27,547 nucleotides of DNA, from assembly GCA_035275365.1 (NCBI GenBank), contig DATEMX010000149.1, positions 1 to 27,547 of the forward strand. The letters are read 5' to 3'. This document shows, one piece after another, positions 93-22,178 of the stretch. Positions within the stretch are counted from its first letter, which is position 1, and every line of letters begins with the position of its first letter. The DNA comes from Polyangiaceae bacterium (GTDB taxonomy: Bacteria; Myxococcota_A; Polyangia; Polyangiales; Polyangiaceae). The notes beneath the pieces are model-generated. The model was given only the letters and a program-made list of their open reading frames with translations. It searched no databases and had not been told where the DNA came from. The translations under genes were made by a program, and so were the position numbers.

Positions 93-188
93 GAAAACGA
101 GGTTTCCTTGGCGCCGGGCCCGATTTCATCCAGACTTGCCCCCCAACCGCCGCCGGCGTCGTCCCCAGCCGCCCCCCGACGCAGCTCG

Positions 189-1856
189 ATGGACCTCCTC
201 TACTTTCTCATCCTCATTTCGGCGCTCATCTTCGTGCACGAGCTCGGGCACTACGCGTGGGCGAAGATCTTCGGCGTGAAGGTCATCACCTTCTCCCTTG
301 GCTTCGGTCCCAAGATCCTGCGGCTGCGCGGCAAGGAGACCGAATACTGCGTGGGGCTCATCCCCCTCGGCGGCTTCGTGAAGATGCTCGAGGAGACCAA
401 GGCCGATCCGGTCTTGCCCGAGGAGCGCAAGCGCACCTTCGAATCGCAGGCGCTCTGGAAGCGCGTGGTCATCGTCTTCGCCGGGCCCATCATGAACCTG
501 ATTTTCCCGGTCGTACTCTACTTTTCGGTCTTCGTGGGCGAGCATCACTTCTTGCCGCCGACGATCGGCGTCGTCCTCCCCGGACACGCCGCCGACGGTA
601 AGCTCAAGGCCGGCGATCGCGTCTTGGCCGTCGACGGCGAAGAGATCGGCACCTACGCCGAGCTCGCGCGCGCGGTGCAAAAGAGCCCCGGACGCGAGCT
701 CACCCTCAAGGTCTTTCGCGACGCGTCCTACCTCGACGTGGACGTCACCCCCGAGGAAGTCGTCGAGAGACGCGAGCTCGACATGGTCGAGCGGGTCGGC
801 CAGCTCGGCATCTACCCGAGCCTGCCGCGCGCCGTCATCGGCGTCCCTCGCCCTGACTCGGCGGCCTATCTGGCGGGCCTCCGCACATTCGACACCGTCA
901 TTTTGGTCGGCGGAAAGCCCATCCGTCGCTTCGTCGACCTCGAGGCTGCACTGCGCGACAACCACGGCGAAAACATGCCTATCACCTACCTGCGCCCGCG
1001 CGTGGCTCCGGGCGCGCTGGGCGGGCTCGCCGATTTCGCGGTCTTCGAACCCGGCGTCGCCAACCTCACGCCCGATCCCGCGGCGGGCGATCTGCTCTCG
1101 CGCACCGGCATCGAGCTCGCCGATCTCTACGCCGTCGTCGTGCCCGACGGCGCACTCCGCCAGGCAGGCCTCGCACCGGGGGACAAAGTCACCGATTTGG
1201 ACGACGTCCCCCTGCCCGCCTGGTCCGTGTTTCGCGAGCGGCTGCTCAGCGCGCCCGATCAGCCGCACACGCTCGGCTGGCTACGCGAGGGGCATCGCAT
1301 GAGCGGCACCATCCAAATGCGACGAGAGCAATGGACCGACGAATACGGTCAGCACTTCGATCGCTACGTGATGCGAACGACGCACTGGATCCCGTCGTGG
1401 CCCGAACCGTTCGTGGAAAATCCACGGCCGATCCGCTACGCGCTCGGCAACGCCTTCGAGGAGACCGGCGACGTCATGCGCTTCATTCTCGTCAGCATCG
1501 CGCGCCTGCTCGAGGGCCGGCTCAGCTTGTCGTCACTGTCCGGCCCCATCACCATCTACGACGTGGCGGGCGAAGCCGCCGCGCGCGGGCCCGACTACTT
1601 CGTTTGGGCCATGGCGCTCATCAGCATCAACCTCGGCCTCTTGAATCTCTTGCCTGTGCCGGTGCTCGACGGCGGGCACCTCTTGTTCTTCGCCATCGAG
1701 GGCCTCTTGCGGCGCCCGCTCCCGCTGCGAGCGCGCGAAGTGGCGAGCCTCGTGGGCATGAGCTTTCTCTTCGTACTCATGGGAATCGCCTTCAAGAACG
1801 ACGTCGACCGAAAATGGGACGTCATCGTGGGACAGTTCCGCGAGTTGTTCGGCTAA
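189..1856 (+). CDS. rseP: RIP zinc metalloprotease RseP (M50 family, site-2 protease) with PDZ domains
   Basis: Start reassigned to ATG 189 (MDLLYFLILISALIFVHELGH). HExxH motif HELGH in the first TM, FSLGFGP and IPLGGFVKM motifs, AGPIMN, C-terminal NLLPVPVLDGGH motif, PDZ-like GD-x-(V/I) repeats. Confidence 0.93.
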   Translation: MDLLYFLILISALIFVHELGHYAWAKIFGVKVITFSLGFGPKILRLRGKETEYCVGLIPLGGFVKMLEETKADPVLPEERKRTFESQALWKRVVIVFAGPIMNLIFPVVLYFSVFVGEHHFLPPTIGVVLPGHAADGKLKAGDRVLAVDGEEIGTYAELARAVQKSPGRELTLKVFRDASYLDVDVTPEEVVERRELDMVERVGQLGIYPSLPRAVIGVPRPDSAAYLAGLRTFDTVILVGGKPIRRFVDLEAALRDNHGENMPITYLRPRVAPGALGGLADFAVFEPGVANLTPDPAAGDLLSRTGIELADLYAVVVPDGALRQAGLAPGDKVTDLDDVPLPAWSVFRERLLSAPDQPHTLGWLREGHRMSGTIQMRREQWTDEYGQHFDRYVMRTTHWIPSWPEPFVENPRPIRYALGNAFEETGDVMRFILVSIARLLEGRLSLSSLSGPITIYDVAGEAAARGPDYFVWAMALISINLGLLNLLPVPVLDGGHLLFFAIEGLLRRPLPLRAREVASLVGMSFLFVLMGIAFKNDVDRKWDVIVGQFRELFG

Positions 1857-1930
1857 CACTACTGCTGCAGATTTCTCGCGTGCCAGATCGATCATCGGAG
1901 CGAGCATACGCCAGCTCAAGGACTGACCGT

Positions 1931-1975
1931 GACGGAGTGGACGGAGTCCAGGAACTGGACGGAGTCCACGGAGAC
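1931..1975 (+). repeat. Degenerate 9-bp-period tandem repeat
   Basis: gacggagtg/gacggagtc/caggaactg/gacggagtc/cacggagac; includes two exact copies of the quasi-palindrome tggacggagtcca (1938-1950, 1956-1968). Confidence 0.6.
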
Positions 1976-2063
1976 CTACGAAGCGAAGCGCAGTGCACAG
2001 GCAGTTTTGGGGTGCTCTAGGCTAGGAGCGGCGAGGCGTGGCGGCTCGTTCGGTCTGAACTAG

Positions 2064-2281
2064 TGCCGCTTGGCCAAAGTCGTGCCCCGACTTTGGCCAA
2101 GCCCGCGCTTCGCGCGGAGGCGGCTTCGCCTCCTGGCACTATCCCTTGGTCTCCGGGGGCTTCGCCCCCGCCCCGCCGGAGCAAGTCCGGAACGGGGCCC
2201 CACCCCCACGGCACCTCCGGCGCCGATCTACCTGCTTCTCGATGCTCTCGAATCTGAGGGCCAAATTTTCGCCGCGCGACA
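2064..2281. mobile_element. Possible nested second MITE / REP-like hairpin element
   Basis: Flanked by CTAG at 2060-2063 and 2282-2285. Ends are imperfect inverted repeats (ctagtgccgcttggccaaa vs reverse-complemented ctagtgtcgcgcggcgaaa, 15/19). Interior is a series of hairpins. Confidence 0.5.
2068..2190. repeat. Cluster of stem-loops
   Basis: 15-bp perfect stem gcttggccaaagtcg/cgactttggccaagc (2068-2102); ccgcgc-ttc-gcgcgg (2103-2117); ggaggcg-gctt-cgcctcc (2116-2133); cgggggc-ttc-gcccccg (2154-2170); ccgga-gcaag-tccgg (2176-2190). Confidence 0.75.
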
Positions 2282-2398
2282 CTAGGTGGTTCCGACAACC
2301 TCGCTGTATTTTACGCTAGGTCTTGGTCATTTTGGATGATCGTGATCTGCTCCTGCCAAAGTCTGCAGCAGTAGTGCTAAACCGAGCACGATTTTCTC

Positions 2399-3739
2399 AT
2401 GGCCACCAAGCTAGAACCGAACGCGCGCAGCATCGCCGCGCACGTCATCGAGCGCGTGCTGCGCGAGAAGGCCTTCGCCGCGGCCGTCCTCGACGCCGCT
2501 CTCGAGCGCTATCCCGAGCTCGATCCGCGCGAGAAAGGCCTCGCCACGGAGCTCGCCTACGGTGCGCTGCGAACAGCTCCCTACCTGGAGACGCGCCTCT
2601 CCAATCACGCCACGCGCGGTTTCGGCAAGGTCGACGCCACCGTGCGCGCGCACCTGCTCGTGGCGGCCTACCAGCTGCTGTTCCTCGAACGCGTGCCGCC
2701 GTTCGCGGCCGTCTCGGAGGCCGTGCGACAAGTCGGCGGCGCGCGAGGCAAGCGGGTGGGCGCTTTCGCCAACGCCGTGCTGCGCCGCCTTTCCGAAGAA
2801 GCCCCGGGCGACAAGCGCAAGGCGCTCGAAGAGGCGGAGCGTGATTCGGCCGCACCGTGGCTTCGCGAAGCCCTCGTGCGCGCACTGGGCGAGGGTGGCG
2901 CCTCGAGCTTTCTCGGCTCCGGGGGCGCGCCGACCATTACCCTTCGCATTCGCTCCGGCGCCGACCGGACAGAGTCGATGGCGCGGCTCGCCGAAGAGGT
3001 CGAGGGCGCAAGCTTCGAGGCGGGCGCGCTCTCACCGCTCGCCATCTCCATGCGCGCGGGCAAAGATCCGGAGAAGCTCTCGCTCTACCGTGAAGGAAAG
3101 CTCGCCATCCACGAAGAGGGCGCGCAAGTGATCGCGCTTTCGCTGGGAGCAGAGCCGGGCGAGCGGGTGCTCGACGCCTGCGCCGGCCGCGGCAACAAGA
3201 GCGCGCTCTTGGTCGAAATCGTGGGCCAAGGAGGCGCCGTCGACGCCGCCGATCAACACCCGCAGAAGCTCGATCGATTGAGGCTCGAACTTCTGCGCCT
3301 CGGGCTTTCGCCGCACGCTACCTTCGCCGTCGACTGGGCGGTCGGCACGGGCGACGTCCCGTCGAACTACGATCGCGTCCTCATCGACGCCCCTTGCTCG
3401 GGCACCGGAACGCTGCGAAGGCGGCCCGATCTGGCGACACATCGGCAAGCCGCGGAGCTCGGAGCGCTCGCCGATCTGCAAGTCGCCATTTTGGTAAGCG
3501 CGGCGTCACGCGCGAAAGAAGGCGGGGCCATCCTCTACGCCGTGTGCAGCGTTCTCCGCGAAGAAGCGGAGGAGGTCATCGAGCGGGCGCGCGCGTTGGC
3601 GCCGTTCCTCGTCCCCGCGCCTTTTCCGGGCGGCCCCGCACGAACGCTGGCGAACGAGGCGACGACTTTGCGCCTCTTGCCGCACCTGCACGGCACCGAC
3701 GGCTATTTCTTGGCGTCGTTCGTCCGCGCGGCGCTTTAG
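2399..3739 (+). CDS. rsmB: 16S rRNA m5C methyltransferase RsmB/Sun (NusB-like N-terminal domain + SAM-dependent MTase)
   Basis: N-terminal NusB-like segment (ELAYGALR, AAVSEAV, FANAVLRR); SAM motif VLDACAGRGNKS; DRVLIDAPCSGTGTLRRRPD; second Cys in YAVCSV. Confidence 0.92.
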   Translation: MATKLEPNARSIAAHVIERVLREKAFAAAVLDAALERYPELDPREKGLATELAYGALRTAPYLETRLSNHATRGFGKVDATVRAHLLVAAYQLLFLERVPPFAAVSEAVRQVGGARGKRVGAFANAVLRRLSEEAPGDKRKALEEAERDSAAPWLREALVRALGEGGASSFLGSGGAPTITLRIRSGADRTESMARLAEEVEGASFEAGALSPLAISMRAGKDPEKLSLYREGKLAIHEEGAQVIALSLGAEPGERVLDACAGRGNKSALLVEIVGQGGAVDAADQHPQKLDRLRLELLRLGLSPHATFAVDWAVGTGDVPSNYDRVLIDAPCSGTGTLRRRPDLATHRQAAELGALADLQVAILVSAASRAKEGGAILYAVCSVLREEAEEVIERARALAPFLVPAPFPGGPARTLANEATTLRLLPHLHGTDGYFLASFVRAAL

Positions 3740-21731: not shown

Positions 21732-22178
21732 CGACCCGCGATGCTACCACTCGTAAGGACAAAAGCGGACGCCGAGAAGATGGCAGGGGTAGGCCGAGGT
21801 GTGACATCGCGCCTCCCTCCGACCTCGCATGGTGCTCGAGGCAGCTCGGTGCAGATAGCCGAGTGGCTGACGGCGGACGACGTCAACCGCAAAGTGAGCC
21901 GCCACGCCTGGCCAGCCTCGCTCCGCTGATGCGGGAATTCTGCTGTTCGATCAGGTTGAGTGGTCTTAATGGCCACTCCTCCCCTTCGGGGGTTCCCAGA
22001 GTTTCGATGATCGATCTGATAGCGATAAATCTGAGGCAATAGACACCATGCGCCTTCGGCACACCTCCCGTGCATGAAAAATCCGACTACCTACCATGTC
22101 TATTTTCATGGTGGTGCTAGTCGCAACGGCTAGCGTGCTGCAGTGAGAATCAGCGACGTGCTGACTAGGCTCGGGTTT

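What the first reader, a model, noticed from the sequence alone, without database searches (positions are those of the whole stretch)
1853..2380. Complete MITE-like insertion that duplicated the rseP stop codon and split an rseP-rsmB operon
Seen: 15-bp perfect TIRs (1857-1871, 2362-2376), a second internal matching block, and CTAA on both flanks, the left copy containing the TAA stop of rseP. Removing the element and one CTAA leaves only 18 nt between the rseP stop and the rsmB ATG, which looks like an ordinary operon junction. Established: IS5- and IS701-family elements duplicate 4-bp YTAR targets. Inference: a non-autonomous element of such a family, possibly uncatalogued, which targets stop codons and could change rsmB-dapAB expression through its hairpins or an outward promoter.
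Basis: partly seen in the sequence, partly recalled or inferred. Interest (0 to 1): 0.72.

Follow-up and report, generated by a model that had tools for sequence, protein, structure and literature searches.

The report
Nested jumping-DNA relics between rseP and rsmB
The 520-base spacer between the rseP and rsmB genes of this uncultured soil myxobacterium is a gene-less mobile element of the IS701 family. It landed on the rseP stop codon and was later hit by a second small element, so it is real but ordinary selfish DNA.

Summary
Perfect 15-bp inverted ends (1857-1871 and 2362-2376) are flanked by CTAA on both sides, and the left CTAA holds the rseP stop codon.

The element is mobile:
- Its ends occur 143 times in this draft genome, and 110 of those are flanked by YTAR.
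- 20 of 29 paired copies carry identical 4-bp duplications.
- Three genomes of the same genus have an empty rseP-rsmB junction of 15-36 nt.

The ends fit the published IS701 terminal consensus. They match up to 13/13 the ends of 1.4-kb IS701-transposase elements in other Polyangiaceae genera, which are also flanked by YTAR. The outer element is therefore an IS701-derived MITE. No IS701 transposase was found in this genome or in its four congeners.

The window copy is a nest. The ~298-bp outer MITE, which itself contains a 67-nt repeat module, was hit at an internal CTAG by a second MITE (2060-2285, about 137 loci). That second MITE is most likely IS630-type.

One third of the YTAR-flanked ends use a gene's stop codon as the duplicated target. 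This is explained mostly by YTAR specificity plus loss of insertions inside genes. No promoter was found, and any effect on rsmB is untested.

The scan has seen stop-codon-landing YTAR/CTAG MITEs before in other genomes. This is a new member of a known kind.

The parts
108..1856 (+). rseP-like gene (site-2 protease, M50 with PDZ); its stop codon TAA is at 1854-1856
   Evidence: Pfam Peptidase_M50 at 225 bits plus PDZ_6; ORF list
1853..1856 (.). Left copy of the 4-bp target-site duplication CTAA, which includes the rseP stop codon
   Evidence: The same tetramer lies at 2377-2380. The empty site of congener G004 has a single CTAA at its rseP stop.
1857..1871 (+). Left terminal inverted repeat of the outer IS701-type MITE
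   Evidence: It fits the IS701 consensus ---YACT-Y--YR (PMC2266710). Its C-variant is 13/13 identical to the ends of the IS701 element in G010.
1884..1896 (+). Left subterminal inverted-repeat block (CAGATCGATCATC)
   Evidence: Read from the sequence. It pairs with 2336-2350 in the predicted fold. It is conserved in the congeners' MITE subfamilies.
1930..1996 (+). 67-nt GGACGGAGTCC-rich repeat module. It is present in the ~298-bp subfamily and absent from the ~230-bp subfamily of the outer MITE. Boundaries are good to about 1 nt.
   Evidence: The module also occurs on its own inside other repeat contexts (C687, C15, C129, C540, C353).
2060..2285 (+). Second (inner) MITE nested in the outer one. 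It has CTAG at both ends (2060-2063 and 2282-2285) and a perfect 15-bp hairpin at 2068-2102.
   Evidence: There are about 137 loci in the genome. Uninterrupted outer copies have a single CTAG at this position.
2336..2350 (+). Right subterminal inverted-repeat block
2362..2376 (-). Right terminal inverted repeat of the outer MITE
2377..2380 (.). Right copy of the CTAA target-site duplication
2381..2398 (+). Original 18-nt rseP-rsmB spacer, now directly upstream of rsmB
   Evidence: Congeners have 15-, 16- and 36-nt spacers here.
2399..3739 (+). rsmB-like 16S rRNA methyltransferase gene, followed by dapA and dapB
   Evidence: Pfam NusB plus Methyltr_RsmB-F; DHDPS; DapB_N and DapB_C

Best explanation
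Window 1857-2376 is a nest of non-autonomous DNA transposons (MITEs).

Step 1. A MITE of about 298 bp with IS701-family ends was inserted by an IS701-type DDE transposase supplied in trans. The insertion site was a CTAA that overlaps the rseP stop codon. A staggered 4-bp cut and repair duplicated the CTAA, so rseP keeps its TAA and rsmB keeps its original 18-nt leader.

Step 2. A second MITE, most likely IS630/Tc1-mariner type, which inserts at the TA of CTAG, landed in the CTAG inside the first element. It added 222 bp.

Result. The rseP-rsmB gap grew from 18 to 542 nt of strongly self-pairing sequence.

Shown: mobility, the target duplication, the empty sites, the nesting, and the identity of the ends to IS701 elements.

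Inferred: which enzyme moved it; that the transposase has since been lost or lies in unassembled DNA; and that any effect on rsmB-dapAB expression would come from RNA structure (pausing, termination or processing of a read-through transcript) rather than from a promoter.
For: Copies in the genome:
- 143 matches to the TIR with up to 2 mismatches; 110 are flanked by YTAR (CTAA 41, TTAG 35, CTAG 32, TTAA 2).
- 29 paired copies of 32-765 bp; 20 have identical tetramers on both flanks. Positions 1 and 4 co-vary between the two flanks, which shows a 4-bp duplication.
- 137 loci for each of the two families.

Empty sites: congeners G004, G003 and G001 have rseP and rsmB 16, 15 and 36 nt apart, and G004 has CTAA at the stop.

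IS701 assignment:
- The published IS701 family table gives terminal consensus ---YACT-Y--YR and a duplication of exactly 4 bp (PMC2266710). The TIR fits all 7 specified positions.
- Elements of 1386-1437 bp encoding NF033540 transposases (up to 418 bits against a cut-off of 150; L146 ORF 409.7 bits, Pfam DDE_5) in other Polyangiaceae genera end in CACTACTGCCGC or CACTACTTTGACA and are flanked by YTAR on all 8 flanks examined.
- 8 of the 10 strong-hit loci show this end: seven with YTAR|YACTACTG (one flanked CTAC) and one with CTAG|CACTACTTTGACA. None of the weak-hit loci do.

Nesting: uninterrupted outer copies (C26, C151, C207) join query positions 207 and 425 across a single CTAG.

Other:
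- The RNA fold of 1845-2400 gives -262 kcal/mol, z = -5.6, closed by the TIRs.
- No Rfam family matches.
- ORFs inside the element reach at most 93 aa, and copies differ by indels.
Against: - No IS701 transposase was found in this genome (72% complete, contigs of 2 kb or more) or in four congeners, one of them 98% complete. This was tested by HMM and by protein search. The mobilising enzyme is therefore inferred from other genera.
- Those IS701 elements share only the terminal 13-20 nt with the MITE.
- Copies are 86-96% identical to each other and none is identical, so activity may be ancient.
- The interior of a repeat in a short-read metagenome assembly could be partly a consensus of several copies.
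- The inner element's family rests on only about 5 nt of its ends beyond the TA.
Confidence: 0.9

Rival explanations
1. The outer element derives from an IS5-family insertion sequence rather than from IS701. IS5-group elements also duplicate 4-bp YTAR/CTAG targets.
For: The YTAR 4-bp duplication does not discriminate between the two families (from established knowledge). IS5-family transposase genes (DUF4096 plus DDE_Tnp_1) are present in this genome at C321 and C233, and they abut CTAG.
Against: Those IS5-family elements end in G(G/A)GCGTGTCCCCATAT, not CACTAC. None of the four PF01609 loci in the congeners contains CACTAC. The TIR fits the IS701 consensus and is identical to the ends of IS701 elements.
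Confidence: 0.03
2. The nest is partly an assembly artefact. The outer MITE really lies at the rseP-rsmB junction, but the inner MITE or the 67-nt module was stitched in from other copies by the short-read assembler.
For: The genome is a fragmented metagenome bin of 820 contigs. About 30% of MITE loci lie within 150 bp of contig ends. Many contigs of a congener break 125-150 nt (mostly 136-141) into the repeat in a k141 assembly.
Against: Copies differ by 4-14%, so long k-mers are mostly unique. The contig runs through into syntenic unique genes on both sides. Nesting into the same CTAG is seen independently at C280, and nests also occur at C15 and C687.
Confidence: 0.05
3. The spacer is a conserved, non-mobile regulatory leader of rsmB-dapAB, or a REP/REPIN-type repeat handled by a RAYT enzyme.
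For: It is highly structured RNA, lies between genes and is rich in GC hairpins.
Against: Three congeners lack it at this site. It has TIRs and target duplications, which REP elements lack. It has more than 100 dispersed copies in unrelated contexts. No Rfam family matches.
Confidence: 0.01

Closest known systems
IS701-family insertion sequences (NCBIfam NF033540, Pfam DDE_5), as defined in De Palmenaer et al. 2008 (PMC2266710); here the 1.4-kb copies in other Polyangiaceae genera (L146, L148, L150, L154)
   Same: The terminal sequence fits ---YACT-Y--YR. The ends read CACTACTGCCGC. The duplication is exactly 4 bp at YTAR.
   Different: The window element has no transposase gene. It is 298 bp (520 bp with its passenger) instead of about 1400 bp. 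Its interior is unrelated to the IS beyond the first 13-20 nt. No parent IS was found in its own genus.
Bacterial MITEs in general (for example Correia elements of Neisseria and IS630-derived MITEs of cyanobacteria; recalled from the literature, not tested here)
   Same: Short, non-coding, with TIRs and target duplications, high copy number, intergenic, hairpin-forming when transcribed, and prone to nesting.
   Different: It belongs to a different IS family and host: uncultured soil Polyangiaceae. No promoter or RNase III processing has been shown for this one.
IS630/Tc1-mariner family (TA duplication, preferentially in CTAG: Tenzen & Ohtsubo 1991, as cited in PMC2170065; Feng & Colloms 2007), for the inner element at 2060-2285
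   Same: It inserts at CTAG. Its ends, C-TA-GTG(C/T)C, resemble those of IS630-family elements in Polyangiaceae, including one in a congener (L165, CTAGTGCTCCGTCCC).
   Different: Only about 5 nt beyond the TA are shared. A TA duplication cannot be told from a CTAG duplication here, and one copy (C424, CTAT on both sides) favours 4 bp.
IS5-group and IS1380-family YTAR/CTAG-targeting MITEs noted earlier in this scan in other genomes
   Same: The same target word and the same habit of regenerating a gene's TAA or TAG stop codon.
   Different: They derive from different transposase families and have different ends.

Membership tests
MITE (non-autonomous DNA transposon) | Terminal inverted repeats | tested here: met
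   15/15 perfect TIRs, plus a subterminal inverted repeat
MITE (non-autonomous DNA transposon) | Target-site duplication of fixed length at independent copies | tested here: met
   20 of 29 paired copies have identical 4-bp YTAR on both flanks
MITE (non-autonomous DNA transposon) | Small size, no transposase ORF, many dispersed copies | tested here: met
   32-765 bp; about 137 loci; internal ORFs of at most 93 aa that are not conserved across indel variants
MITE (non-autonomous DNA transposon) | Empty site in relatives | tested here: met
   G001, G003 and G004 have 36-, 15- and 16-nt rseP-rsmB spacers
MITE (non-autonomous DNA transposon) | Autonomous partner with the same ends in the same genome | tested here: not met
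   No IS701 transposase in the own genome or in 4 congeners. The own bin is 72% complete and lacks contigs shorter than 2 kb.
IS701-family derivative | Terminal consensus ---YACT-Y--YR | tested here: met
   CACTACTGCTGCA fits all 7 specified positions (one search compared)
IS701-family derivative | Duplication of exactly 4 bp | tested here: met
   the family property is stated in PMC2266710
IS701-family derivative | Ends shared with elements that encode a bona fide IS701 transposase | tested here: met
   L154 (CACTACTGCCGCA, 13/13 with the C-variant of the MITE), L146, L148, L150; 8 of the 10 strong NF033540 loci show the end
IS701-family derivative | Mobilisation by an IS701 transposase | not testable with these tools
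   Needs a transposition assay
IS5-family derivative | Ends shared with IS5-family elements of the lineage | tested here: not met
   The C321 and C233 elements end in G(G/A)GCGTGTCCCCATAT. No CACTAC occurs in the congeners' PF01609 loci.
IS630-family derivative (inner element only) | TA duplication at CTAG and ends shared with IS630 elements | tested here: inconclusive
   CTAG flanks most of the 21 near-full copies. IS630-family elements of Polyangiaceae end in C-TA-GTG(C/T)C. TA and CTAG duplication cannot be separated.
REP/REPIN | Imperfect palindromes without TIR or target duplication, linked to a RAYT gene | tested here: not met
   TIRs and target duplications are present. A RAYT gene was not searched for.

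The most novel reading that the evidence does not exclude
Two MITE families with about 137 loci each, plus diverged sister families in every congener, thrive in a genus where no IS701 transposase can be found in five genomes. These orphan MITEs might be moved by an enzyme of another family, or by transient, horizontally visiting IS701 copies. Alternatively, copies sitting on stop codons might have been retained as 3'-end RNA structures such as terminators, insulators or processing sites.
Probability: 0.1. Interest if true: 0.5.

Novelty: new member of a known kind. Interest (0 to 1): 0.28.

Why it matters
The finding has mainly practical value.
- It explains an anomalous 542-nt gap in a normally tight rseP-rsmB junction.
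- It defines two uncatalogued MITE families (IS701-type, and probably IS630-type) in uncultured soil Polyangiaceae.
- These repeats sit at many contig ends of the metagenome assemblies, and a congener's k141 contigs break inside them.
- It gives a clean, quantified example of why YTAR-specific elements in GC-rich genomes pile up on TAA and TAG stop codons without harming the genes.

It does not reveal a new mechanism.

Tried and rejected
Search for the autonomous partner:
- PF01609 and PF13340 in the own genome found IS5-family elements with unrelated ends.
- PF01609, PF13546 and PF05598 in the congeners found none with CACTAC ends.
- Two wide TIR pairs in G003 (4.4 and 4.8 kb) turned out to be separate MITE copies.
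- A self-BLAST for long repeats found only 3 of 450 bp or more; the bin has no contigs under 2 kb.
- tblastn and HMM searches with IS701 found nothing in the genus.

Collection scans:
- A conserved subterminal 19-mer in genome-contig hit only congeners (Polyangiaceae soil MAGs SMAG_U2730, SMAG_U12427, SMAG_U12425), chance singletons, and two contigs binned as Vicinamibacterales.
- The exact TIR was found in none of 150 other genomes of the order.
- The rseP 3' 24-mer and the MITE left 23-mer were not found in metagenome contigs.

Function:
- No sigma-70-type promoter was found. There is one weak terminator-like hairpin at 2374-2389, which is no more than chance.
- No Rfam match.
- No orientation bias of copies at stop codons: 11 left ends against 19 right ends, p = 0.2.

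Tools and look-ups that gave nothing:
- The look-up of encoding contigs gave no record.
- Literature searches for myxobacterial MITEs and for IS701-derived MITEs found nothing specific.
- One search was an uninformative alignment.

Full report
**1. Observation**

- ggCTAA|CACTACTGCTGCAGA starts the element at 1857.
- TCTGCAGCAGTAGTG|CTAAaccgag ends it at 2376.
- These are the only two matches to the 15-mer in the window with up to 2 mismatches; 0.04 were expected by chance.
- The repeat finder extends the inverted repeat to 21 nt at 90%.
- ORF 108-1856 is a site-2 protease of the RseP type (Peptidase_M50 plus PDZ). ORF 2399-3739 is RsmB (NusB plus Methyltr_RsmB-F). DapA and DapB follow.
- The TAA at 1854-1856 is the rseP stop codon and lies inside the left CTAA.
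- The 'second internal block' is a subterminal inverted repeat, 1884-1896 against 2336-2350, with a 2-nt indel.

**2. The element is mobile**

A search of the window's own assembly with the 520 bases gave dozens of hits. The assembly is a 4.7-Mb, 820-contig, 72%-complete bin.

The hits fall into two classes:
- Query 1-207 joined directly to 425-520. These are uninterrupted copies of about 296 bp, at C26, C151 and C207.
- Query 204-429 on its own, in many contigs.

The window copy is therefore a nest. An outer element was interrupted at an internal CTAG (2060-2063) by a second element (2060-2285, with CTAG at both ends).

Counts for the outer element:
- The outer TIR occurs 143 times with up to 2 mismatches, at positions where the flank can be read.
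- 110 of these are preceded by YTAR: CTAA 41, TTAG 35, CTAG 32, TTAA 2.
- 29 inverted pairs define copies of 32 to 765 bp.
- 20 of those pairs carry the same tetramer on both sides: CTAA 8, TTAG 6, CTAG 5, TTAA 1.
- The first and fourth bases vary between copies but agree within a copy, so the duplication is 4 bp and not TA.

Each family occupies about 137 loci, and about 30% of them lie within 150 bp of a contig end.

**3. Empty sites**

In three genomes of the same genus, rseP and rsmB are adjacent. The flanks are 82-83% identical in nucleotides.
- G004: ...ttcggCTAA + 16 nt + ATG
- G003: ...ggcTGA + 15 nt + ATG
- G001: ...ggcTGA + 36 nt + ATG

Removing 1857-2380 from the window gives ...ttcggCTAA + 18 nt + ATG.

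A collection scan named the congeners as Polyangiaceae soil MAGs: SMAG_U2730, SMAG_U12427 and SMAG_U12425.

**4. Which family**

De Palmenaer et al. 2008 (PMC2266710) list the IS701 family as follows:
- length 1400-1550 bp;
- conserved terminal bases ---YACT-Y--YR;
- a highly conserved duplication of exactly four bp.

CACTACTGCTGCA fits all seven specified positions.

I then searched 60 other Polyangiaceae genera with NCBIfam NF033540 (IS701 family transposase). Ten genomes had hits above the cut-off.

Next to those genes lie inverted ends:
- ttag|CACTACTGCCGCA...|ctag (G010, 1401 bp)
- ctaa|CACTACTGCCGCCAATTTCGC...|ttaa (G175, 1437 bp)
- ctaa|CACTACTGCCGGAAACTT...|ctag (G024, 1435 bp)
- ctag|CACTACTTTGACA...|ctag (G058, 1386 bp)

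Further support:
- The G175 ORF scores 409.7 bits against NF033540 (cut-off 150) and 223 bits against Pfam DDE_5.
- Eight of the ten strong loci show this end: seven with YTAR|YACTACTG (one of them flanked CTAC) and one with CTAG|CACTACTTTGACA. None of the ten weak-hit loci do.
- About half of the MITE copies carry the C-variant CACTACTGCCGCAGA, which is 13/13 identical to the G010 element.
- The IS5-family elements of this genus end differently, in G(G/A)GCGTGTCCCCATAT.

The outer element is therefore an IS701-derived MITE.

**5. The missing partner**

No IS701 transposase was found in the own bin or in the four congeners, one of which is 98% complete.
- PF13546 found none.
- NF033540 found none.
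- tblastn and a protein search with the G175 transposase found none.

The own bin has no contigs under 2 kb and almost no long repeats, so a collapsed IS could have been discarded.

Other observations bearing on age and spread:
- Full-length copies are 86-96% identical to each other.
- All four congeners carry diverged sister subfamilies. G003, for example, has CACTACGCTGTCAG... in copies of about 230 bp with CTAG/CTAA flanks.
- The exact TIR was found in none of 150 other genomes of the order.

This suggests an old expansion confined to the genus, whose transposase has been lost or was not assembled.

**6. The passengers**

The inner element:
- It ends in CTAG-TGCCGC... and ...GCGRCA-CTAG, and it added 222 bp at a single CTAG.
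- IS630-family elements (NF033545 or PF13358) of Polyangiaceae end in C-TA-GTG(C/T)C or C-TA-GTACC. One of them is in congener G001.
- IS630 is known to insert at the TA of CTAG (Tenzen & Ohtsubo 1991, cited in PMC2170065).
- An IS630-type origin is the best candidate but is not shown. One copy with CTAT on both sides (C424) favours a 4-bp duplication.

The 67-nt module:
- The outer MITE of the window also contains a GGACGGAGTCC-rich module at 1930-1996.
- The roughly 230-bp subfamily lacks this module.
- The module occurs separately inside other repeats.

**7. Stop codons**

- For 37 of the 110 YTAR-flanked ends (34%), the TAR of the duplication is the stop codon of a gene-like ORF reading into the element.
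- The figure is 9.6% for all YTAR site-orientations in the genome.
- It is 13-20% for those outside crude coding masks that cover 64-89% of the genome. With the most complete mask the odds ratio is 2.0 and p = 0.001.
- An in-frame TAR cannot exist inside an intact gene, and insertions inside genes are lost. Most of the enrichment therefore follows from YTAR specificity plus selection. The residual two-fold is within the error of my gene map.
- There is no orientation bias: 11 left ends against 19 right ends, p = 0.2.

**8. Consequences**

- A read-through transcript of 1845-2400 is predicted to fold at -262 kcal/mol (z = -5.6), with the TIRs and the subterminal repeat closing the structure.
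- No sigma-70-type promoter was found, and only one chance-level terminator-like hairpin.
- No Rfam family matches.
- Whether rsmB-dapAB expression is changed cannot be decided here.

**9. Verdict**

It is a new, uncatalogued member of a known kind. The scan has reported YTAR/CTAG-targeting MITEs on stop codons in other genomes before, which agrees with this being a common pattern.

Noticed in passing
window 21880-22040: A decayed, 5'-truncated copy of a sister MITE subfamily (the type seen at C402 and C183, with ends CAYTACTGYCTGAGTCTTGG... and ...AAGGCAGTAGTG|CTAG). It lies in an intergenic gap. Its right end has degraded to aaatctgaggcaatagaca and it carries a roughly 30-nt extra insert. 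At least 9 related loci occur in the genome.
   Followed up: partly
window 1930-1996: A 67-nt GGACGGAGTCC-rich module separates the 298-bp and 230-bp subfamilies of the outer MITE. It also occurs inside copies of the inner family (C687, C15, C129, C540, C353), and the number of 9/18-nt units varies. It may be a third mobile or recombining module.
   Followed up: partly
own genome, C280:810-1574: Another copy of the outer MITE carries a roughly 530-bp pile-up of further CTAG-flanked repeats in exactly the same internal CTAG that the inner MITE hit in the window. That CTAG is a recurrent landing pad, and the genome holds more CTAG-targeting repeat families.
   Followed up: partly
own genome, C321:1-850 and C233:1-470: IS5-family (IS427/IS1031-like) transposase genes (DUF4096 plus DDE_Tnp_1, apparently frameshifted), cut off by contig ends. 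Their upstream end is CTAG|G(G/A)GCGTGTCCCCATAT. They are unrelated to both MITEs.
   Followed up: partly
L089 and L126 (DASPWV01 contigs labelled Vicinamibacterales bacterium SMAG_U11550): Two short contigs binned as an acidobacterial MAG carry the MITE. L126 has a 235-bp copy whose CATTACTGCCGCAG end is the one common in Polyangiaceae MAG SMAG_U2730; L089 has only a partial match. Mis-binning of repeat-bearing contigs is the likely cause.
   Followed up: no
L189 reverse complement, 774-850 (G154, another Polyangiaceae genus): A roughly 75-bp mini-MITE whose left end is 21/25 identical to the left end of the window's inner MITE. It sits just upstream of an IS630-family transposase gene, so the inner superfamily extends beyond the genus.
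   Followed up: partly
own genome and congener G002 (contig ends): About 30% of MITE loci lie within 150 bp of contig ends. Many contigs of a congener's k141 assembly stop 125-150 nt (mostly 136-141) into the repeat. These MITEs are probably a major cause of the fragmentation of these MAGs.
   Followed up: partly
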